A stretch of 63,183 bases of DNA, counting the filler, from Perkinsus olseni (Eukaryota), in NCBI GenBank assembly GCA_013115125.1. It is 41 parts of 41 records of this genome, joined end to end, with 100 filler letters (N's around TTAATTAATTAA, not from the genome) between each part and the next. Parts side by side here need not be neighbours in the genome. Positions count along the whole stretch, not along the records: positions 1,584 to 3,064 come from JABANN010001875.1; positions 3,165 to 4,644 come from JABANN010001876.1; 39 more parts are not named here. One strand, 5' to 3'. Made by a program: the position numbers and the translations under genes. Below, piece by piece: positions 1 through 52,646 of the stretch; within the stretch, counting starts at the first letter, position 1, and each line of letters begins with the position of its first letter. The notes under the pieces are model-generated. The model was not told where the DNA came from. It searched no databases and saw only the letters and a program-made list of their open reading frames with translations.

Positions 1-570
1 ACTGGCATACAGTAGCATAGATGAGGCTGCCATGATCAGGATCACCATTGATGGTGCCGGTGGTCGTTTGAAAAAGTGCAACAAGCGAGCCATAGATGAG
101 ATGGGAACCCAGGCACGGCTGGCCGTAAGTGGGGCTGAAGTGGGATTTAATGCAGACAGAATTTGACTTCACCATCGTGTTACCCATAGTCCACTGAGTA
201 ACTCCATGCGTTTCCCTGCGTTTGTAGTCACTAGAATCAAAAAATATCGGCACTTCAAGTTCTGCGCAAAAATACTGCGCAGAATGGGGGTCACAGGTTC
301 GATTCCCAGTACTTACATTTTATGATAAGTCTACTATACAGTCGAGAAACTTGTTGAAAATACAACCCATCTGCTACGTAGTGATCGCAAACGCACCCAA
401 AAAATTCTCGGAACTTGGGTTGGCACATGAGGTCTGAAATAGCACCGCCAGCCGCACGTTGGACCCCAACCAAGGATTCCCCAGGCTAGCAGCCGTGAGT
501 GCTGCAAGTCACGATTCACATGGCTAGCCAAGTTAAAGGCTCACTCACTGCCATCGCTTTATCCGCTACC

Positions 571-1483
571 ATGAAGTTCCTAGAGATACCGGAAGAGGTT
601 GCTAATGTTGCTGAGCCTCGTCACCTCAAGAATCTCTACCGTGTATGCCGTTTATGTTACACAAGGACAAGTGCTACTGCTGGGAATACAACTCCGCCTC
701 CTGGGGAGAAAAATTGTGGGAGAGCCGCTACCTTCTACGGCATTGACCTAAAGCGCGAAGTCACGAATTTGGCCCTTCCTAAGGTCTTATGTGCAGGCTG
801 TACGCGACGACTGGCACGCTTCGAGAAAGACCCCGATTCCTTCGAATCATGGAAAGAGAGCGGAAGATTCTACGTCGACGCTCTGCAGTTAGATTCCGAT
901 GTGGTAGTGACTCGTACTGACGCTTGCTCCACGGAGGTCCCTTGCAGAGTGTGTGTCATCGTTGCCAACCGGAAGCCCAATTTCCTCCAAGCGCAGCACT
1001 CTAATGCACCGAAGAAAGGGAGAACCTTGGAACAGTCTCCACCTAAAGCTATGTGTTCCAAGTGTGGGCAGCCCATCGCTGATCATGATGATGCATTCTG
1101 TGCAATGGTCATGAAGAATCCTTGTCGGGCTAAAGAAGCCGGTCGTAAGTTCGCCAGAAGAACGGAGGCCAGGGGTTTCACGGAACAGCTGGTCCAGGAG
1201 CATCTGCGGGACTCGTTTACATCAGGAACGGGCGGCTCCAAGAGCTCCAAGACTCCCATGCGTACAGGTGTTAAGCTGGATGGTCACCGTTACCTTGGTA
1301 TCACACCTGCTCGCTATGATGGGAAGGCTGGAACTGGTACATGTCTCTCTACCGAAGCTGCTAGAGACCTCCTGAGACTTGGTCATCTTGGCTTTGGAAA
1401 GGATAGTGCACGGGAGCTGTGCACTATACTGGGCCGCGAAGGTATTCGTTTTCCCAACGGTGGCCTGGAGGAGTGCAGAAATG
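571..1483 (+). mobile_element. N-terminal part of a Chapaev/Transib/RAG1-like DNA transposase (3' truncated by gap)
   Basis: HLKNLYRVCRLC...FYGIDLKRE...LPKVLCAGC...W...CRVC resembles the RAG1 N-terminal/Chapaev Zn-binding motif (H-x3-L-x3-CRxC...ID...P-x3-CxxC). A second CSKC-x6-H-x4-C cluster follows. No introns. Confidence 0.6.
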
Positions 1484-1583: not shown

Positions 1584-1627
1584 CAAGGATGCGGATTGTA
1601 GATGAAGCAAGTTCTTCGGTCTTCATT

Positions 1628-1700
1628 GCCGGGATAGTCTAGTGGTTATGACGTCTACCTTACACGCAGAAGGTCGCGAGTTCACTCTTCGCTCCTGGTA
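1628..1700 (+). tRNA. tRNA-Val(TAC), variant or possible pseudogene
   Basis: Acceptor GCCGGGA/TCCTGGT. Anticodon stem mismatch (TCTAC/GCAGA) and altered T arm TTCACTCTTCGC. Confidence 0.7.
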
Positions 1701-1796
1701 GGTGCTTTTCGTTTGTAGACCATGTACCAGATCTGCATACAAAAAGATATCTCAAGGATGCGGATTGTAGAGGAAGGAAGTTCTTCGGGCTTCATC

Positions 1797-1869
1797 GCCG
1801 GGATAGTCTAGTGGTTATGACGTCTGCCTTACACGCAGAAGGTCGCGAGTTGAATCCTCGCTCCTGGTA
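1797..1869 (+). tRNA. tRNA-Val(TAC)
   Basis: Cloverleaf with TCTGC-CT-TAC-AC-GCAGA. T loop TTGAATC (C56G). Confidence 0.8.
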
Positions 1870-1965
1870 GGTTATTTTCGTTTGTAGCCCATGTACCAGA
1901 GCTGCATTCGGAAAGATATCTCAAGGATGCGGATTGTAGATGAAGCAAGCTCTTCGGTCTTCATT

Positions 1966-2038
1966 GCCGGGATAGTCTAGTGGTTATGACGTCTGCCTTA
2001 CACGCAGAAAGTCGCGAGTTCACTCTTCGCTCCTGGTA
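1966..2038 (+). tRNA. tRNA-Val(TAC), T-arm variant
   Basis: Intact anticodon arm. T arm GCGAG-TTCACTC-TTCGC. Confidence 0.75.
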
Positions 2039-2134
2039 GGTGCTTTTCGTTTGTAGCCCACGTACCAGATCTGCATTCAAAAAGATATCTCAAGGATGCG
2101 GATTGTAGAGAAAGCTAGTTCTCGGGGCTTCATC

Positions 2135-2207
2135 GCCGGGATAGTCTAGTGGTTATGACGTCTGCCTTACACGCAGAAGGTCGCGAGTTCAATCCTCGCT
2201 CCTGGTA
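2135..2207 (+). tRNA. tRNA-Val(TAC), canonical copy
   Basis: All four stems intact, A box TAGTCTAGTGG, T arm GCGAG-TTCAATC-CTCGC. Confidence 0.95.
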
Positions 2208-2303
2208 GGTGCTTTCCGTTTGTAGCCCATGTACCAGATCTGCATTCAGAAAGATATCTCAAGGATGCGGACTGTAGATGAAGCAAGTTCTTCGGGCTTC
2301 ATC

Positions 2304-2376
2304 GCCGGGATAGTATAGTGGTTATGACGTCTGCCTTACACGCGGAAGGTCGCGAGTTGAATCCTCGCTCCTGGTA
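2304..2376 (+). tRNA. tRNA-Val(TAC)
   Basis: Cloverleaf with a G-U pair in the anticodon stem. T loop TTGAATC. Confidence 0.8.
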
Positions 2377-2472
2377 GGTGCTTTCCGTTTGTAGCCCATG
2401 TACCAGATCTGCATTCAGAAAGATATCTCAAGGATGCGGACTGTAGATGAAGCAAGTTCTTCGGGCTTCATC

Positions 2473-2545
2473 GCCGGGATAGTATAGTGGTTATGACGTC
2501 TGCCTTACACGCGGAAGGTCGCGAGTTGAATCCTCGCTCCTGGTA
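2473..2545 (+). tRNA. tRNA-Val(TAC)
   Basis: Same sequence as the copy at 2304. Confidence 0.8.
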
Positions 2546-2641
2546 GGTGCTTTCCGTTTGTAGCCCATGTACCAGATCTGCATTCAGAAAGATATCTCAA
2601 GGATGCGGATTGTAGATGAAGCAAGTTCTTCGGGCTTCATC

Positions 2642-2714
2642 GCCGGGATAGTCTAGTGGTTATGACGTCTGCCTTACACGCAGAAGGTCGCGAGTTGAGT
2701 CCTCGCTCCTGGTA
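2642..2714 (+). tRNA. tRNA-Val(TAC)
   Basis: Cloverleaf with T loop TTGAGTC. Confidence 0.75.
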
Positions 2715-2810
2715 GGTTATTTTCGTTTGTAGCCCATGTACCAGAGCTGCATTCAGAAAGATATCTCAAGGATGCGGATTGTAGATGAAGCAAGTTCTTC
2801 GGTCTTCATT

Positions 2811-2883
2811 GTCGGGATAGTCTAGTGGTTACGACGCTTGCCTCACACGCAGAAGGTCGCGAGTTCAATCCTCGATCCTGGTA
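2811..2883 (+). tRNA. tRNA-Val(CAC)-like terminal copy, probably degenerate
   Basis: Anticodon loop CT-CAC-AC, with mismatches in the anticodon and T stems. Confidence 0.6.
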
Positions 2884-2967
2884 GGTGCTTTTCGTTTGTT
2901 TGACCGGTCAATTTATTGGGCGAGTTTAAAGCGAGGCGCGCGCGATCGCGATTAGGAGGGAACATAT

Positions 2968-3049
2968 GGGGACGAGACCTGAGTGCCTCCACGTGGCGTC
3001 CCTGGACAACGGAAGGAACCCGGGTTTCCTCCGTTGACTAAAGCTCAGG
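2968..3049 (+). ncRNA. HDV-like self-cleaving ribozyme (predicted)
   Basis: P1 GGGGAC(2968-2973)/GTCCCT(2998-3003) with first G-U pair. P2 CCTGAGT(2978-2984)/GCTCAGG(3043-3049). P3 GCC/GGC around L3 TCCACGT. P1.1 CC/GG(3004-3005). P4 CAACGGA..GGAA/TTCC.TCCGTTG. J4/2 ACTAAA with candidate catalytic C3038. Confidence 0.8.
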
Positions 3050-4262
3050 GTAGGTTGACCGAGCNNNNNNNNNNNNNNNNNNNNNNNNNNNNNNNNNNNN
3101 NNNNNNNNTTAATTAATTAANNNNNNNNNNNNNNNNNNNNNNNNNNNNNNNNNNNNNNNNNNNNTTTAACGCTCATACAAGGACCGGAACGAGTTCGCGG
3201 CGACGCGTAGTCCTACAGCGCTGCAAGGACAGATGGAACATACTCCTTCTTTGAATCCACGTATCCCACGACAGCCTGAAAGGCGAACAGCGGCGGGTAG
3301 GCGTGACTCTCAGGAAGGTTCTCCCCACGAGCGCCGAGTGTCCTCACTTTCCCCCGTTCAGCGGTCGGGTCCACCGCGACGAAGGTTCGCCCATTAGTAG
3401 GCTCTGCCATCCACCGGCCAAGCAACATATCGCCAGGTTTCCAAGGTCTGTATTCAAGTTTGGACGAAATATTGTTGTCTGCCTCGACTTTCGAAAGTGA
3501 ACTATCAGTCGGGGTCTGTAGAGCTGCTCCGGCTGCCGTGCTCCTGATCGCGGTGTGTATTGAGCAGATGCAGGTGATGATTTTCATAATCTCAACCCCA
3601 CGTAAGGAAGCGCAACTGAAAAGAGCATGCCGAAGGCTTTAGAGCTTAAGGTAGCCGGTATACGTATGATCAAGCGCCTCAAACTGAGCGAGTCCTCTCT
3701 CGCACCTTACGTCCCGTCTCGTCTCTTTTACAGTATCGCAACTCCCTGGGAATTGAGCTGTTCAGAATTTTTGGCGCAAGCTTATTGTCGCAGACGTACG
3801 GGATGGGCAGAGGCCTCCGCAGAGGAGAGTCAGGAGATGGCTCCTCAAGCGTTGGTTCCTGCTCGGTTGATAGCATTTTCGAGTGGGTCTACGGGAATGT
3901 GACTCGATACTGTGCTCTGCTTAGATCTCCCAGGAGGCTCGGTGATCAGAGATTGATGCTTCGACGATCAACACAATGAAGGGTAGTTATCAACAACATC
4001 ACGCAGCAGTGCATCGTGTCAGCTGACAGCACGTGGAGATCATGAGGAGTCCTTATTCAGGACGGAGCGTGCTTGCTGAGTAGGGTATACTGCGTCCATG
4101 CGTCTGCGAGTTAGACGGGACCGTAGCAAAAATGATGCGGACAATACGGGCATCACGGTGATAGGACATAATAGAGAAAGAAGCTCGTCTGAGCATACAG
4201 AGACGTCGCGGAAGTTGCCCACTTCAACTTGAGCTCTAATTTGAAGTGCACCCGAAATCGTT

Positions 4263-4309
4263 GGTTCTATCGTTCAGCCTTACCAATGGTAAGGCTGAAC
4301 GATAGAACC
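4263..4309. repeat. Perfect 23-bp inverted repeat with 1-nt centre
   Basis: GGTTCTATCGTTCAGCCTTACCA-A-TGGTAAGGCTGAACGATAGAACC. Confidence 0.95.
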
Positions 4310-5448
4310 CATGGTAAGTTACCATTGACTAAATCCAAGTTGCCTCTATTGTGAAGCTTTACACTATGGATGTCAGCCTGGTCTTCAACTACGAGGTATA
4401 CCGCGACAACTGCTGGCCATCCCTAGCGCATCTACGGAACACACGAGAGCGTGCCCGGTACATGAATTCATCTTGTTCTGGAGCCACCCTCATCAAGCAG
4501 TGTTGTAGTTGCCACAACACGAGGTGCTGTGCACTCACCTCTTTGAGGCCTTTCTGCAGCATTGTCGGTCCGGCCTTTCTATTCCGCCAATCGTCCCTTG
4601 TCATTGCATACGAGATACAAACAACCACATGATTCCCGCGTCCGNNNNNNNNNNNNNNNNNNNNNNNNNNNNNNNNNNNNNNNNNNNNTTAATTAATTAA
4701 NNNNNNNNNNNNNNNNNNNNNNNNNNNNNNNNNNNNNNNNNNNNCGTTGGCGGGCGCATTTTGCGTACCCGTAGGCGGAATTCCATCTTACAAACCGCTC
4801 GAATAAGTGCCAGTGGGGTCGGTAACACACGAGTGGAAGAGAACTCCTTCCCATGGGGTCGGGTGGAGGGCATCAGAGACGCCATCATAAACAGCTGATT
4901 ACTTTAATGTCTTTTGAAGACCTCATCATCAGAGTTCCAGCTGCTGCTGCGTTACTGTCTTACTTCCCTCTGGTTACCGCGATAGGTGCAATGGCTCCTG
5001 ACAATCCCGATGATGTGAGAGCTTCTTTGTCGGCAAATCTCTAGTTGAGCTAACTGAGTTGGTCGGTAGGAGGACAGTTGAACGCGTTTTTCTAACGCGT
5101 TTTTCTTGACATGTTAAGTATCATCCAACTCGGAAACTTCGAGTTTGCGAGAGCACCATGTTACGTGTCTTTCGCCCTCAGGCTTATCCCCCGTGGTGCC
5201 GAAGCTCTTTTTTCGATACCTTGACAAACACGGCTTTTTGCAGCTACAATAACTTCCTTGATCGTAGATCGACTATGACTAGGAGCCTCACTATGGCGGT
5301 TGAGGATAACATGGTTAATGCAGCCGTTGTTGATTGCCCTGAAGCTAATAGTCGGCCCGCATTCTACATAACGTAAGTGAGGAATATCTGAGAATTTTCC
5401 GTATCAGTAGCGAGTCTCGGAGAATCAGACCCTCTGGCAGATCATCAC

Positions 5449-15939: not shown

Positions 15940-17199
15940 ATGTCAACGATCTCAGGTACTAGCAAACCACTCGCTCCTACCGAACGCAAAGTGTTGGAAC
16001 ACAAAAACTCAGGAGGGTTTGTCCTATCACAATTTCTGAATACGGCGCTGGCTCCGAAGACTCGGCAGTCGTATGACTCTGTTATTCGCTTGTATACCGA
16101 ATTTTGCCTGCCCTACCCTCCGTCCCCCTTACAAGTGCCTCATCTACAAGACTTCGTTCATGCTCTGTCAATGACCGGCTCCCACAAGGGGAGCACGATT
16201 GACAACTACGTTCGCATTCTCAAGGCAACGAATCTCCGACGCGGTTCTGAGCTAGATGCTCCATCCGTGTTTGCTATCAAAGTTGCAGTCAAAGCCGCCA
16301 AGAAGCGGACTGGTGGACCTGAAGCCGCCCAAAAGCGAGCACTCACAAAAGATGAGGTCGTTGGCATAGGCGAGGTCCAGACGGTTCCTGGTGTCGTAAA
16401 TAATCTACAAGAGTTTCGGGCTGCGACTTTGATTGCAATATTTGGTCTTTTACGTTGTAGGGAAGCTCTATCATTGAAGCGCGGAGATGTTGTCTTCAGC
16501 AGTGCTCAGGCAGCCATCACGCTGAGGAAATCCAAGACCGACCAGTTCATGGCTGGTCATACCGTCGTTATTGGCTGTTCGGCCAAGAGCCGCCCTGGCC
16601 CCTGTGTGGATGGATTCTGCCCCTTTCTACGGCTAAAGGCCTGGTTCGAGTCCTGTTCCGGGCAAGCTGACGACTTGCTTTTTCCCGGCCTGACGTATGA
16701 AACCTGGAGACTGGACCTAAGATGCGTGATCGCATATCTCTCCGGTACTCCGACCTCACTAGATGGCGTTGGTACAACGTCCGTGGCCCTTCATTCCCTT
16801 CGGCGCACGGGAGAGCAACTGCTCTGGAGAGCAGGCTTCTCGCTCCTACACTTGCGAGAATATGGGAGGTGGCGCTCCAACGCCTATCTAGAATACCTCA
16901 AAGGTGTGACCTTGTCTGAAGCGCCTTCCTATGCAGCGGCAATGATGGCGCAACCGCCGGAAGCCTTGCCAGAGCCGGCCCTTAAAGCGCACAAGGAACA
17001 TATGGTCTCCAGTACTGTTTCGGATCCTTCGGCTTCCCTCATGGAAGGAGCGCCCGCAAAGGATAAATGTGGAGCTTCCAGTACCTTACTCAAACGCCCA
17101 CGGACTTCTAGGACGACTCCCGCAAGCGAGGACAGGGGAGACCGCATGGGAAGGCTGGTAGTGCATGGTCCAAAGGGACCTGGTAGCCGAGCTACCTAA
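15940..17199 (+). mobile_element. Tyrosine recombinase of a DIRS/Ngaro/VIPER-type retroelement
   Basis: LAPKTRQSY N-domain. Catalytic R (GLLRCRE), K (RKSKTDQ), HSLRR, GRW-x-S and Y (YLEYL). Confidence 0.9.
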
Positions 17200-25118: not shown

Positions 25119-26090
25119 TCGGCCTCGGATCGTGTGGATGGAAGCCTGAGAATCTGTGAAGAGATGCCATTCTATACCTCTGTGAGCCGAACAGCTCAGC
25201 CATCGCAGGGCTCTGCGGATGGCTTCCAACTCGCACTGGTGAATGGTGGCGAACCGCTCAAGCTTGAAGGCTTGGCGCTCCACCACTTCTCCTTCCTTGA
25301 CAGCCAGGAAGGCTCCGCCGGCGCTGTCGCCGAACTTGGAACCATCAGTGTAAATGGCCGGGCCCCGGTAGGCTGATGCCAGCTTGATCGCTTCTTCTCT
25401 TGGGCGGATGGAGGCGGGGAGGGAAGAGCGCCAAGGCGGGAGAGGATGGGGCTCGCGTCGGTCCACTCTCCAAGCCGGCTCCGCCGCTTCAGGCCCAAGG
25501 GCCGCTATCAGGTCGCTGGAGGTGCCTGTGGTGGCGCGGCACCTCCCTGCCAGCATCCTCAATTGGATGCTGGCTGGGCAGATGCCGGCCATGGCTTGGC
25601 ATGCTGCATGTGAGGCGGTTCTCGGGGCTCTGACCGATATACGGGCCGCTAAGCCCGATACCGAGTCCAGGACCCTGGCTAGCTTCTCATCCTCCAAGGC
25701 TCCGACCCACACGCTGACTGCGTGAGCCATAAATGGCACCACGGCCAACTGGTAGGTCTTCAAGATGCGCTTGGTGTCGAGCCCCGCCCGCTCCCAACCC
25801 AGGGCGTGTAATTGCCCTAGGCGGGAACGAGCTTGGGCAGCCTTCCTCTTGACGTGCTCTTTAAAGAGCAGTCGCTGGTCGATCACCAGCCCAAGGATGG
25901 TGACGGTCTTGGCTCGGCTAATGGCCTTGCCGTCGATCATCAATGCTCGTACCTGGAGCTTGGCAGGGGAAAGGTAGTAACACTTGCTGGGGTTCAGGCT
26001 GAGCCCAGAGGCTCGCGACCAGTCCGAGATCCGAGTCTCGATCTGGAGCCATCGCTCCCTGAACTCTCGGACGCCCTTGGTCGTGAGGAC
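25119..26090 (-). mobile_element. Non-LTR retrotransposon ORF2: RT thumb plus RNase H, 5' truncated
   Basis: GLSLNPSK, ILGLVIDQRLLFKEHV, IYTDGSK, ELEAI, FTDSQAS. Confidence 0.92.
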
Positions 26091-26439
26091 CAAGTGTATT
26101 GCATAAAGTTGGTATGCAATACACTGAGGAAACGAGTCGCTGCATCTGATTGCGAAGTGAAGAAGGTCGGGTACCAACTTGGAAGTTGATTGACGAAGTG
26201 ATATTCTATGCGTGTGAGGAGAATGGTGTGGCGCAGGCCATACTGTCGTTCGATTATTAGTAGTAGTACCACACGTCAATGGCATCACGCGTGGATGAGG
26301 GTTTTAAGTGAAGTATCCTCCCAGATGTTACAACTCAAGGACAAGACATTACCGAAGAAACTAGTGATACTTCAGCAGTCGTGCTAGTTGCATTTGCATC
26401 GTTTGTAGTTGACTTTGCAAGTCTCTAATCACGTCAGTG

Positions 26440-48188: not shown

Positions 48189-49608
48189 TCTCCATCGCAG
48201 CCCAATATCTCCGGATCTTGTGTTACACTTCTAGCAGCTCAGCTGCGAGTGTTGCTAGATGACACAGTTGGTTGATGCAGTTGATCTTATAGTTGGTGAT
48301 GTAATCGTACTTGTCTAAATCATCTTCCTGTTGAACGGCGTTTGAGTCATCCTCCGCAGGGGCTTCGTCTTCGACCTGTCGTGCAGAGAAATCAACATAG
48401 TCGTTGAATCTGACCTTGTTGTTAGTGGTCTTGGTCTCCCAGTTAGTCCCAATATGGTAGCCAGCTGGGGAGATAGTGATTCGAGTCCTTAGGCGCGACA
48501 TCGTCGGGCAACCAAGTATCACCGGGTGACTTAGTGGTACCGTTGTAACCAGAAAATTATCTATTGCGGACACTCTTGTAGTCGAAACTCGTAGACGTAC
48601 ATTGCCGATTGTGTGTAAGTGTCCACCATTGGCCGCGCTGAGGGTGTTGATGACTTCGGGTTCGAGGTCAGCGTCCGGAGCGACATAGTTGAGACACTCT
48701 GCCGTTATTAGTGATACGTCAGCACCGGTGTCATAAATAGCCGTCACCTCTGTCTCTTCAATAGTGACGTAGCCGGTCATCATTCCTTCTCGATGTCGGA
48801 CCCGAGGGTCTGGAGTAGGTGGTCTAGTCCTCGAGCTGCGTAGTGTGTAGCAGTGACGCTCTACCTCAGCAGTTCCGTTGTTGAGAAAGGTGGCATGGAC
48901 ATTAGTATTAACCTTGCCTTTGGTAGTAGGTTTAGGGCCAGAACCCTTGCCGGTGCCAGAAGTAGAAGACCGGTTAGTTGACTGGCCAGTAGTCACTCTT
49001 GAGGGAGGTGGCGTTTGTAATTTGGTACCACAAACATAGGCCAAATGCCCAGGGTTGTTACACCTGTGGCACACTAGTCGGTCCGTGTTGATACGGCAGT
49101 CATCAGTGGTATGGGCCGGGTTACCGCAGATCTTGCAACGGGAGTCCAGATTGGCGGGTTGTAGTTCTGGGCAATTCTTAGCCGAGTGGCCTGCCTTGTT
49201 GCAGCGAAAGCAGGTAAAGCCGGTAACATCGTTCTTAATGGCTAGTAGGTGCTTGACAGAGTAGTCACTCTCGGAACCGTCGTTATCAACGTAGTTGACG
49301 GATGACCTTCTCGGAGAATAGGAACGGTCTCTGCTAGTGGTACTCCTCGGTGTATACTCCTTGGCGGTTCGAGCACGAGTAGAGTTGTCCTTTGAGCGTC
49401 GCAGACCAGAGTTAATATCGTCGGTCTCATCTTTGTCGTACTTAGAGCCATAGTAGCTGACGAGCTGCTTATGATGGTGTAGTACACGGTCACGAAACTG
49501 TTCAAAGGACATGTAGTCGTTGACGAGATCAATATCTAGTCGTTGGCGTAGATGAATCGATCTCAAACCTTTGTGTAGTCTGACCTTAAGATCTCGGTAG
49601 GGAACCGG
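48189..49608 (-). mobile_element. Ty3/gypsy-like gag with three CCHC knuckles plus protease
   Basis: CFRCNKAGHSAKNC, CKICGNPAHTTDDC, CHRCNNPGHLAYVC, AIYDTGADVS...ILG. Confidence 0.92.
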
Positions 49609-51228: not shown

Positions 51229-52646
51229 AAGGGACAACCGTTGCGTATCGCGCACGCCCGGCGTCACAGTAATATAGTATCGAACCCGCGCTACCGCGCA
51301 GGTCGTAGGTCGGTGGCTTTGGATCTTCTCCAGCCCCGGCTCCGTAGTACTCTCGTAGACTTTATCTGCCTCCAGGAGCCCAGCTCCTCCTCACGTAAGC
51401 TTATCGGTTACCAATACCATGGCTTGCGTCGAGGCGAAGAGGCAGCTGTTTTATCTAAACGTGGCACCATGTGCCACACGGTTTTCGCGTCCCGCGACCT
51501 TGCTGTGGTCAAGGGACGTAGCTATGGCGTCGCGTCGCTGTACCTCCACGGCTCTGACATGCCAAGGAGGGAGGCGGCGCTGACGGAGATCGAGGAGGTC
51601 ATAGACTCATGGCCGCCCACTATCCCACTCTACATCTGCTCTGATGCAAACGCATGGCATGTAGGGTGGGGCTCGGTCTCCACTGCTGCCAATCAGCACA
51701 GGCAGGCTTGGCAGCGCGGTGAGGCGCTCGTTGACTGGTGTCTGGATAAAGAAGTTAGGATCCTCAATGACGAGGTTTCTCTGCCGACCTTCGAGTCCAA
51801 CCGGTACCAATCGTGGGTTGACCTCACCCTATTATACGGAGCGCCCAGAGATGGCGTTGAGCCTCGATGGGAGGTCGTGGATGACCTCTGCGGGTCAGAC
51901 CACAGGCTACTCTACGTGCAGTTCGGTGAGCAGGAAGCGGCCCCCGCTCCGAGACTAGCTCACCGTCTTGTAGACATAGCCAAGGTTATTGATGGCGCCT
52001 CTAGGATTCCTCCTGATACTTATCTCTCTGGTATCACGGAATCTTTGAGCGCCTTGGTAAAACGGTACACGCCTGAAGCCCCCGCCCCGTCTGACACCAC
52101 CTGGTGGACGGGTGAGCTGACTAGGCTGAAGGCGAAGCTACGAAGGGCCCAGCGGGCGTTCTTCCGACACAAAAGGTTGAACGGCCCCGATGCATCCTCC
52201 ACGGTGCACTATCGGGGTATCCGTGACGCTGCCGAACGCAAGTTCAAGGTAGCCGTTAGAGGGGCCAAGGGGGTAGCTGCTCGCAGATTCTTCACTGATC
52301 TGCAGAACTACTCCCGCTGCGTTAAACGAGGTTGTCCTCGGATTCCCCCAGCCGCTATATGCGCGCATGGGGTGAATCAGGCGGACTTCCTCCTACATCG
52401 GCTTTTTCCTCGGGACCCCGACAGGGACACTGAGGTTGAGGCCTTACGGTTTGGGCAGCGTACCGAGCCGGTGCCGGCGGTTACCGCCTCTGAACTCAGA
52501 GAGGCAGCCAGCGGACTCAGGCGAGGCGCAGCCCCGGGCGAGGACGACGTTAGTAATGACGTTGTTCTCGATACGCTCGAGGTGCTGAAGGACAGCTGGT
52601 GCGCCCAGCTTAGTGCAGCCCTCGAAGCTGGTATATTCCCCCAAGA
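51229..52646 (+). mobile_element. Non-LTR ORF2: APE endonuclease through RT domain 0
   Basis: ICLQEP, SDANA..WGS, RGE, PTF, VDLT, SDHR, WW..EL, APGED. Confidence 0.93.

What the first reader, a model, noticed from the sequence alone, without database searches (positions are those of the whole stretch)
2900..3064. HDV-like ribozyme fold immediately behind a tRNA-Val tandem array
Seen: the 169-bp unit breaks off after ...TTCGTTTGT (2899). Some 68 nt later a sequence satisfies every pairing of the HDV nested double pseudoknot: P1 with G-U at position 1, P2, P3 GCC/GGC, L3 starting UCC, P1.1 GG, a long P4 and J4/2 ACUAAA. It is on the same strand as the tRNAs. Known: HDV-like ribozymes free the 5' ends of R2, RTE and L1Tc-type retrotransposons from host co-transcripts, and phage theta ribozymes process tRNA 3' trailers. 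Inference: this is either the 5' end of a tRNA-array-associated retroelement using Pol III read-through (terminators here are only T3-T4), or a ribozyme that trims array transcripts. I know of no such report for Perkinsus. Caveat: P1 is 6 bp rather than the usual 7.
Basis: partly seen in the sequence, partly recalled or inferred. Interest (0 to 1): 0.85.

Follow-up and report, generated by a model that had tools for sequence, protein, structure and literature searches.

The report
HDV-like ribozyme candidate in Perkinsus
An 82-base stretch just behind a row of valine tRNA genes in a Perkinsus (oyster parasite) genome folds exactly like the hepatitis-delta family of self-cutting RNAs, far better than chance allows, but whether it really cuts and what it serves cannot be settled from this short contig.

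Summary
Window 2968-3049 (+) forms every helix of the HDV nested double pseudoknot: P1 6 bp with a G·U first pair, P2 7 bp, P3 GCC/GGC, L3 UCCACGU, P1.1 CC/GG, a long P4 and J4/2 ACUAAA with C3038. A descriptor I wrote found only this locus in the window and none with the catalytic C replaced. It hit 1 of 1,714 dinucleotide shuffles. At the candidate's own helix lengths it hit 0 of 21 million random flanks. Rfam is sub-threshold: four HDV-family models hit the same place, the best at 25.6 bits against a cut-off of 50. Two clean metagenome sequences and one probable one share the unpaired core with different, complementary P1 and P2.

The host is a Perkinsus. The window is 41 unrelated small contigs, and this contig ends 15 nt after the ribozyme. 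In other public runs the same 165 nt recurs: once as a head-to-head palindrome with no tRNA, once at high depth with diverged flanks. Its link to tRNA is therefore not obligatory. Cutting would occur 68 nt inside the repeated unit, not at its edge. This is a new member of a known ribozyme class. Its role, probably 5' processing of a repeated element's RNA, is inferred.

The parts
1627..2899 (+). Tandem array of 8 tRNA-Val units (about 169 bp each: 7 with anticodon UAC, the last with CAC at 2810-2884). The array sequence ends at 2899. This is the upstream neighbour in this contig, not part of the ribozyme.
   Evidence: ARAGORN, Rfam tRNA hits, sequence
2900..2967 (+). 68-nt leader between the array junction and the predicted cut site. 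It starts with the 12-nt palindrome TTGACCGGTCAA (2900-2911). It is conserved together with the ribozyme in other runs.
   Evidence: Sequence. Self-blast inverted match 2900-2911. X1 contig 100% identical over 2900-3064, and an X2 contig starting exactly at 2900.
2968..3049 (+). HDV-like ribozyme candidate; predicted cleavage is 5' of G2968. P1 2968-2973/2998-3003. P2 2978-2984/3043-3049. P3 2985-2987/2995-2997. L3 2988-2994. P1.1 2989-2990/3004-3005. P4 3007-3036. J4/2 3037-3042 with C3038.
   Evidence: Helix check. Descriptor hit and decoys. Shuffles. Four HDV-family Rfam models below threshold at the same place.
3050..3064 (+). 15-nt trailer up to the contig end. 3048-3061 can pair with 2905-2918 in the MFE fold of 2900-3064.
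   Evidence: Fold of 2900-3064: -61.3 kcal/mol, z -1.76, 9 of 200 shuffles fold as well. The contig end is shown.

Best explanation
Window 2968-3049 (+) encodes a genuine HDV-like (delta-like) self-cleaving ribozyme of a Perkinsus genome. When RNA polymerase coming from upstream transcribes it, the RNA folds into the nested double pseudoknot. C3038 in J4/2 then acts as the general acid/base, and the chain is cut between U2967 and G2968. That leaves a 2',3'-cyclic phosphate on the leader and a 5'-OH RNA that starts with the ribozyme. The ribozyme sits 68 nt inside a sequence unit that occurs in more than one genomic context and at high depth in some samples. Its most likely job is therefore to give a defined 5' end to the transcript of a repeated, probably mobile, element that has no promoter of its own and is transcribed by read-through. 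The fold and its non-random nature are shown. Catalysis, the read-through transcript and the nature of the element are inferred.
For: Fold:
- All helices and the CNRA junction are present.
- The descriptor finds 1 locus in the window and 0 with the three decoy bases.
- It hits 1 of 1,714 shuffles.
- The rest of the fold appears in 102 of 21,257,236 random flanks at loose settings and 0 of 21,257,236 at the candidate's helix lengths.
- Four different HDV-family covariance models align to the same coordinates and strand. They match the conserved GCCUCC.CG.GGCG, CUGG and CUAA letters.

Family-level covariation:
- The core pattern returned 15 loci, 11 of them distinct.
- Two distinct sequences (L001=L004, and L007) form the complete fold with different P1, P2 and P4 sequences. 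P1 is again 6 bp in both.
- L008 forms it with one bulged base in P1.

A real, recurring sequence:
- 19 of 24 listed runs hold the stretch or part of it, 12 of them half or more of its sampled words. They come from 12 studies and two organism labels.
- X1 carries 2900-3064 without a single difference.
- In X2 no variant reaches 5% within 2968-3049, while three do just upstream (2947, 2950, 2954). Contigs with other flanks join at 2955 and leave at 3052, so the ribozyme is the best-kept part.

Context:
- The other contigs of the window are full of retroelement pieces.
- P. marinus is reported to carry hundreds of tRNA genes. It also carries five Dada DNA-transposon families that insert specifically into tRNA genes (PMC3706591, passages read).
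Against: - No cleavage assay and no RNA evidence exist. Two raw-read RNA runs gave 0 laid reads, which is no test.
- No Rfam gathering score is met (25.6 against 50 bits). The match is not listed at E <= 10 over the whole window.
- P1 has 6 rather than the usual 7 pairs.
- There is no covariation among true homologues, because the copies seen are identical in the ribozyme.
- In X2, depth falls from 1,016 (contig 2900-2993) to 480 (contig 2964-3052), and two records leave the sequence after 2993. About half of the copies there may therefore lack the 3' half of the ribozyme.
- No ORF, reverse transcriptase or transposase is linked to it; the contig ends 15 nt downstream.
- The 68 nt upstream are conserved, which does not fit copies made from ribozyme-trimmed RNA.
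Confidence: 0.55

Rival explanations
1. It is the 5' end of a target-specific non-LTR retrotransposon that lands in or beside tRNA-Val arrays. It is co-transcribed with the array and released by the ribozyme, as R2 is released from 28S co-transcripts.
For: - HDV-like ribozymes do this in R2, RTE, baggins and L1Tc elements (review passages, PMC6765202; abstracts).
- The genome holds non-LTR elements with an APE endonuclease (window 51241-52646).
- Both are on the same strand, behind a tRNA array whose units carry only T3-T4 runs.
- The X2 contig starts exactly at 2900. That fits a branch at the array junction in a second organism label.
Against: - The cut site is 68 nt inside the non-array sequence.
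- Those 68 nt are conserved in X1, where no tRNA precedes them.
- No RT ORF is visible.
- blastn of 2900-3064 against the whole window gave no match beyond its own locus, so none to any of the retroelement fragments.
Confidence: 0.2
2. The ribozyme belongs to a DNA-level repeat. This could be the sub-terminal part of a tRNA-array-targeting DNA transposon (Dada-like), or of a fold-back palindromic amplicon that begins at the 12-nt palindrome 2900-2911. The ribozyme would trim read-through transcripts of that unit.
For: - P. marinus has five Dada families specific for tRNA genes and three more without an assigned target (PMC3706591).
- The leader 2900-2967 is copied together with the ribozyme.
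- The X1 contig runs exactly 15 nt past the centre 2905/2906 as a perfect palindrome. That is what a 31-mer graph gives for a long inverted repeat without a spacer (my inference).
- Word depth in X2 is high, 480-2,900 on this stretch against up to 3,800 on the tRNA units.
Against: - Described Dada insertions lie inside the tRNA gene with 6-7 bp duplications. Here the junction is 15 nt behind the tRNA, and the other end is unseen.
- No transposase is linked.
- The baseline depth of X2 was not measured, so 'high copy' is relative only.
Confidence: 0.15
3. It is a host device for the tRNA array. It cuts read-through or polycistronic array transcripts behind the last unit, either helping 3' trailer removal or ending transcription.
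For: It is on the same strand, 83 nt behind the last tRNA. Several units lack a T4 run, so read-through between units is conceivable. Theta ribozymes show that HDV-like ribozymes can process tRNA transcripts (PMC10879173).
Against: - The same sequence occurs without a tRNA in X1.
- A T4 run lies between the tRNA and the ribozyme.
- Theta ribozymes are minimal (no P4) and abut the tRNA end. This one has a 30-nt P4 and is 83 nt away.
- Only one of the 8 units is followed by it.
Confidence: 0.08
4. It is a fold look-alike without activity: a chance match or a decayed copy.
For: - Sub-threshold Rfam scores.
- 6-bp P1.
- Ordinary nested folding energy.
- Many windows have been read in this scan, and several earlier 'HDV-like' notes did not hold up.
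Against: - Chance rates are about 4e-9 per position for the loose descriptor. For the candidate's quality they are below about 4e-13, my product of the numbers.
- The catalytic C and all junction letters are intact.
- The stretch is identical in other runs while its flanks vary.
- Two unrelated metagenome ribozyme candidates share the core and the 6-bp P1.
Confidence: 0.12

Closest known systems
HDV-like (delta-like, drz) self-cleaving ribozymes with a structured P4, e.g. drz-Agam-1 (RF01787), the F. prausnitzii ribozyme (RF02682), HDV (RF00094), CPEB3 (RF00622)
   Same: - Strand order of the nested double pseudoknot.
- 3-bp GC-rich P3.
- L3 of 7 nt reading UCC.CGU.
- P1.1 formed by the CC of L3 and the GG after P1.
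- G·U at the cut site.
- C-N-R-A in J4/2.
All four Rfam models align here.
   Different: - Scores are 12.6-25.6 bits, well under each family's gathering score.
- P1 is 6 bp.
- Apart from the core letters there is no sequence relationship to any of them.
- The host is a perkinsozoan alveolate.
5'-end ribozymes of non-LTR retrotransposons (R2, RTE, baggins, L1Tc/Pr77)
   Same: An HDV-like fold on the sense strand behind a multicopy RNA-gene array, in a genome rich in retroelements. The expected product is a 5'-OH RNA that begins with the ribozyme.
   Different: - No RT ORF is seen.
- The cut site is 68 nt inside the repeated unit instead of at or near its 5' junction.
- Upstream sequence is conserved between copies.
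- There is no sequence similarity to the retroelement pieces in the window.
Theta ribozymes of gut phages (PMC10879173)
   Same: An HDV-like ribozyme downstream of, and on the same strand as, tRNA genes.
   Different: Theta ribozymes lack P4, cut at the tRNA 3' end and are confined to Caudoviricetes (passages). This one has a long P4, cuts 83 nt behind the tRNA, and is eukaryotic.
Dada DNA transposons of Perkinsus marinus that target tRNA genes (PMC3706591)
   Same: Same genus. Foreign sequence joined to a tRNA gene array. The genome carries hundreds of tRNA genes that serve as landing sites.
   Different: Dada inserts inside the tRNA gene with a 6-7 bp duplication and encodes a DDE transposase. 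Here the junction is in the spacer, no transposase is visible, and no ribozyme is described for Dada in the passages I read.

Membership tests
HDV-like (drz) ribozyme class | Nested double pseudoknot with strand order P1-P2-P3-L3-P3'-P1'-P1.1-P4-J4/2-P2' | tested here: met
   All helices verified by script. The descriptor gives its single hit at 2968-3049.
HDV-like (drz) ribozyme class | Catalytic cytosine at the start of J4/2 (C-N-R-A) | tested here: met
   C3038-U-A-A lies in J4/2 ACUAAA. The descriptor with A, G or U at this position gives 0 hits in the window. Its role as the active-site base comes from the literature.
HDV-like (drz) ribozyme class | G at +1, in a G·U wobble closing P1 | tested here: met
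   G2968·U3003. This is not universal in the class: the L1Tc-type ribozymes start with C1 (PMC4035085 passages).
   P1 is 6 bp, and a seventh pair would need C2997 of P3. The two clean metagenome folds with the same core also have 6 bp. I therefore treat this as a variant feature, not an exclusion.
HDV-like (drz) ribozyme class | Mg2+-dependent self-cleavage 5' of +1, lost in the C-to-U mutant | not testable with these tools
   This needs an in vitro transcription assay.
HDV-like (drz) ribozyme class | Compensatory changes in the helices among homologues | tested here: inconclusive
   Copies in X1 and X2 show no variant at 5% or more inside 2968-3049. Covariation is seen only across unrelated sequences sharing the core: 2 clean and 1 with a bulge, of 11 distinct pattern matches.
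Rfam families RF00094, RF01787, RF02682, RF00622 | Score at or above the family's gathering threshold | tested here: not met
   25.6/50, 16.9/37, 15.9/44 and 12.6/35 bits. None appears in the gathering run. It is not a member of any of these named sub-families.
Retrotransposon 5'-end ribozymes (R2/RTE/L1Tc type) | Reverse-transcriptase ORF downstream in the same element | not testable with these tools
   The contig ends at 3064. No whole genome is held. The X1 contig runs 199 nt further, but its letters are not given.
Retrotransposon 5'-end ribozymes (R2/RTE/L1Tc type) | Conserved sequence downstream, and unrelated (or target-gene) sequence directly upstream of the cut site | tested here: not met
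   The 68 nt upstream are identical in X1 and in the main X2 contig. The variant joining at 2955 is still related upstream. The criterion comes from PMC6765202.
Theta ribozymes | Minimal fold without P4, with the cut site at the tRNA 3' end, in Caudoviricetes | tested here: not met
   P4 spans 30 nt. The cut site is 83 nt behind the tRNA end at 2884. The host is Perkinsus.
Dada transposons | Insertion inside a small-RNA gene with a 6-7 bp target duplication, and a DDE transposase | tested here: inconclusive
   The junction at 2899/2900 is 15 nt behind the tRNA, not inside it. The second junction and any ORF lie beyond the contig.

The most novel reading that the evidence does not exclude
The ribozyme is the RNA-processing module of a so far undescribed Perkinsus repeat that lives at tRNA arrays. 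That repeat would be either a target-specific retroelement or, more unusually, a Dada-like DNA transposon or a fold-back palindromic amplicon seeded at the 12-nt palindrome 2900-2911. It would rely on host read-through transcription and cut its own RNA free 68 nt inside the unit. If true, this would be the first ribozyme-bearing mobile element in Perkinsozoa. If the unit moves as DNA, it would be the first HDV-like ribozyme tied to a DNA-level element.
Probability: 0.25. Interest if true: 0.7.

Novelty: new member of a known kind. Interest (0 to 1): 0.5.

Why it matters
HDV-like ribozymes are found mostly by structure searches, and their roles outside R2-type elements, CPEB3 and phage tRNA processing are poorly known. 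A clean example in Perkinsus would extend the class to a lineage where my searches found none reported. Perkinsus is a parasite of oysters and an early branch near the dinoflagellates.

The candidate also sits in a genome already known for very many tRNA genes and tRNA-targeting transposons (PMC3706591). That makes a simple question testable: do elements that live in Pol III gene arrays use ribozymes to free their RNA? The 6-bp P1 variant, shared with two unrelated metagenome candidates, may also help to widen search descriptors.

Tried and rejected
- **Whole-genome search:** not possible, because no genome is held for this window.
- **Other copies in the window:** none by blastn, by motif (1 match, 0.06 expected) or by descriptor.
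- **Rfam:** the gathering run lists no ribozyme. The whole-window E-value run does not list the HDV match or any other HDV-family match.
- **RNA evidence:** no RNA holder is listed among the 24 runs. Two raw-read RNA runs (X22, X24) gave 0 laid reads, which the tool itself calls no test.
- **Vector, plasmid or phage origin.** I considered this because 2900-2967 is rich in restriction-site-like palindromes and holds an AGGAGG-N7-ATG. There was no blastn match in plasmids or phages. The tRNAs are of eukaryotic type, and the ORF from that ATG stops after 24 codons (my reading). Rejected.
- **Pattern scans:** viral contigs gave 0. Of the 6 prokaryote-genome hits, none has a contiguous P1 together with P2/CNRA. 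L009 and L012 look like coding sequence, yet L009 passes the loosened (bulge-allowed) test, so that test is not specific.
- **MAFFT alignment A1** of the four ribozymes misaligns the ends. I did not use it for pair counts and checked the helices by script instead.
- **Tandem 155-bp unit.** TTGACCG occurs at 2900 and again at 3055. I rejected a tandem repeat because the X1 contig runs 373 nt without looping.
- **A 7-nt match** (GGTAGGT) between the tRNA 3' end and 3049-3055 is about what chance gives (my estimate).
- **Earlier notes of this scan:** none concern this genome or sequence.
- **Papers:** Webb & Luptak 2011 and Ruminski 2011 are not held. Supplements, including descriptor files and the Dada termini figures, were not seen and may bear on the P1 length rule and on Dada ends.
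Full report
**What the window is.**
The 63,183-base window is not one locus. It is 41 small contigs of 1,483 down to 1,395 bases, sorted by length and joined by N runs around the linker TTAATTAATTAA. The finding lies on one 1,481-base contig, 1584-3064, and the pieces on either side are unrelated. No whole genome is held for the window.

A non-LTR endonuclease/RT fragment elsewhere in the window (51241-52646) has its best protein matches in Perkinsus marinus, P. olseni and P. chesapeaki, at 60-84% identity. Other contigs carry further retroelement pieces: gag-protease, RNase H, and a weak tyrosine-recombinase hit.

**The observation.**
ARAGORN finds eight tRNA-Val genes on the + strand in units of about 169 bp. 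The last is at 2810-2884, with anticodon CAC instead of UAC. The unit sequence stops after TTCGTTTGT at 2899, and 2900-3064 is unique within the window.

- P1 GGGGAC/GUCCCU: 6 bp, first pair G·U.
- J1/2 GAGA.
- P2 CCUGAGU/GCUCAGG: 7 bp.
- P3 GCC/GGC.
- L3 UCCACGU.
- P1.1: the CC of L3 with G3004, G3005.
- P4 3007-3036: 7 + 5 pairs.
- J4/2 ACUAAA with C3038.
- The fold ends with the 3' strand of P2 at 3049.

**Is it more than chance?**
I wrote a descriptor looser than the candidate:
- P1 of 6-7 bp with G at +1.
- J1/2 of 0-8 nt.
- P2 of at least 5 bp.
- P3 of 3 Watson-Crick pairs.
- L3 of 6-8 nt starting UCC.
- GG after P1'.
- P4 of at least 4 bp.
- C-N-R-A before P2'.

In the real window, both strands, it finds this locus only. 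With the catalytic C changed to A, G or U it finds nothing. In 1,714 dinucleotide-preserving shuffles of the 59,183 N-free bases it hit once, which is about 6e-4 per window.

A second estimate agrees. The P3-L3-P3' anchor occurs at 7.9e-4 per base. Given an anchor, the rest of the fold appears in 102 of 21,257,236 random flanks. Together that is about 4e-9 per position.

With L3 restricted to UCCNCGU the anchor rate is 3e-6 per base. That form of L3 is shared with the Rfam consensus lines shown. At the candidate's own P2 >=7 and P4 >=6, none of the 21 million flanks passed. By my arithmetic, a match of this quality is not expected even once in a 100-Mb genome.

**What speaks less well for it.**
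- Rfam's gathering run lists only U6 and the eight tRNAs.
- Searching just 2885-3064, four HDV-family models align to the same place and strand, all far under threshold: RF00094 25.6 bits against 50, E 0.044 for that 180-nt search; RF01787 16.9; RF02682 15.9; RF00622 12.6.
- Over the whole window the match is not listed at E <= 10.
- These models cannot score the two pseudoknots, and the class is known for very low sequence conservation (PMC4870747 passage).
- The nested-only MFE is ordinary: -30 kcal/mol, z -0.42.
- P1 has six pairs, not the usual seven.

**Relatives elsewhere.**
I scanned for the core GCCUCCACGUGGC-N6-GGACAAC. It occurs in 9 metagenome loci, 0 viral contigs and 6 prokaryote-genome loci. 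That makes 11 distinct sequences.

- Two of them (L001=L004, and L007) form the entire fold cleanly, with quite different sequences.
  - P1 is GGUUGC/GCAACU in one and GAGCGC/GCGCUC in the other.
  - P2 is CCGUUGC/GCAACGG and CGCAA/UUGCG.
  - Each has its own P4 and a C-N-R-A junction, and P1 is again 6 bp in both.
- L008 forms the fold with one bulged base in P1.
- The remaining eight fail. One of them, L009, looks like coding sequence yet passes the bulge-tolerant test, so that loosened test is not specific.

These are not homologues of the Perkinsus sequence in any demonstrable sense. They do show that this exact set of unpaired letters recurs with covarying helices, and that a 6-bp P1 goes with it.

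**The same DNA in other samples.**
Of 24 listed public runs, 19 hold the stretch or part of it, and 12 hold half or more of its sampled words. They come from 12 studies and two coded organism labels, and none is on record as RNA. I laid four runs on 2800-3064.

Run X1 (organism A):
- It has one 373-nt contig identical to 2900-3064 that continues 199 nt past 3064. The letters are not given.
- On the other side it reads nine letters that, with 2900-2905, are the exact reverse complement of 2906-2920.
- The contig therefore ends 15 nt beyond the centre of a perfect palindrome at 2905/2906. My inference: in a 31-mer graph this is what a long spacer-less inverted repeat produces.
- There the element stands head-to-head with itself, not behind a tRNA.

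Run X2 (organism B):
- Word depth is very high: up to 3,800 on the tRNA part and 480-2,900 on 2900-3064.
- One contig starts exactly at 2900 (depth 1,016, no differences to 2993). Another covers 2964-3052 (depth 480).
- Other records join from a related but diverged upstream sequence at 2955, leave after 2993 (two records), or leave at 3052 into a related sequence with an insertion.
- No variant reaches 5% inside 2968-3049, while three do at 2947, 2950 and 2954.

The two raw-read RNA runs gave no reads at all, which is no test.

**What this means for the interpretation.**
- The 165-nt unit is real and recurs in at least two contexts, with the ribozyme as its best-conserved part. That fits a functional, repeated, possibly mobile sequence.
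- The unit begins at or before 2900, not at the cut site. Copies made from ribozyme-trimmed RNA would start at 2968.
- The classic sign of a retrotransposon 5' ribozyme is conserved downstream and unrelated upstream sequence (PMC6765202). That sign is not seen.
- The tRNA link is not obligatory, as X1 shows. A T4 run at 2889-2892 lies between the last tRNA and the ribozyme. The cut site is 83 nt behind the tRNA, unlike theta ribozymes, which lack P4 and abut the tRNA end (PMC10879173).
- P. marinus is reported to have hundreds of tRNA genes. It also has five Dada DNA-transposon families inserted specifically in tRNA genes, plus three more without a known target (PMC3706591, passages). A foreign unit joined to a tRNA array in this genus is therefore not surprising in itself. 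The described Dada insertions, however, lie inside the gene, not in the spacer.

**Most likely mechanism.**
This is a true HDV-like ribozyme that cuts transcripts entering from upstream between U2967 and G2968. [quoted passage not shown] Within that reading, I rank the two kinds of unit about equally:
- a target-specific retroelement;
- a DNA-level unit, either Dada-like or a fold-back palindrome seeded at TTGACCGGTCAA.

A host role in array transcript processing, and an inactive look-alike, are less likely.

In the MFE fold of 2900-3064 the leader 2905-2918 pairs with the trailer 3048-3061 and encloses the ribozyme (z -1.76; 9 of 200 shuffles fold as well). I note this but do not build on it.

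**Novelty.**
The ribozyme class is well known and widespread. My searches found no paper that links it to Perkinsus. I file it as a new member of a known kind, with a 6-bp P1 as a minor variation. The open and more interesting part is the element it belongs to.

Noticed in passing
window 1-63183: The window is a pseudo-molecule of 41 contigs (1,483 to 1,395 bases, sorted by length) joined by N runs around TTAATTAATTAA. Adjacency between pieces means nothing.
   Followed up: yes
window 2900-2920, and run X1: TTGACCGGTCAA (2900-2911) is a perfect 12-nt palindrome. In run X1 the palindrome extends to at least 15 nt per arm and the contig stops as a de Bruijn hairpin would. This suggests a long head-to-head inverted repeat of the ribozyme unit in that sample.
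   Followed up: partly
window 2905-2918 with 3048-3061: Leader and trailer can form a helix of about 13 bp, many pairs G·U, that brackets the whole ribozyme and overlaps the last two pairs of P2. The fold of 2900-3064 has z -1.76.
   Followed up: partly
window 1627-2884: The tRNA-Val units are not uniform. Three are called at 75 rather than 73 nt; two of these have altered T-arms and the third, the last unit, has anticodon CAC. Several units have only a T3 run behind the tRNA. Word depth on the tRNA part in run X2 is about 8 times that of the 2964-3052 contig.
   Followed up: no
window 240-1483: On the first contig a tRNA 3'-half-like fragment (about 283-323) and a spacer resembling the Val-array spacer precede a 328-aa Cys-rich ORF (499-1483) with no Pfam hit. 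This could be a tRNA-targeting element of the Dada kind described for P. marinus.
   Followed up: no
window 45641-45743 (-): A full-length U6 snRNA gene (108.4 bits).
   Followed up: no
window 4254-4321: A near-perfect hairpin of about 65 nt, with sub-threshold miRNA-model hits on both strands, on an unrelated contig.
   Followed up: no
window 15940-17199, 25119-26288 (-), 48223-49566 (-), 51241-52646: Retroelement fragments: a weak tyrosine-recombinase SAM-like hit, RNase H, zinc-knuckle plus aspartyl protease, and an APE-type endonuclease of a non-LTR element.
   Followed up: partly
L008 817-888 (-), L007 360-421 (-), L004 193-268 (+): Soil or environmental metagenome contigs carry HDV-like folds with the same core and a 6-bp P1. 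In L008 the fold ends 30 nt before the start codon of an Amidoligase_2 gene. In L007 it lies 29 nt behind a 263-aa ORF and before a small ORF with an RBS-like motif.
   Followed up: partly
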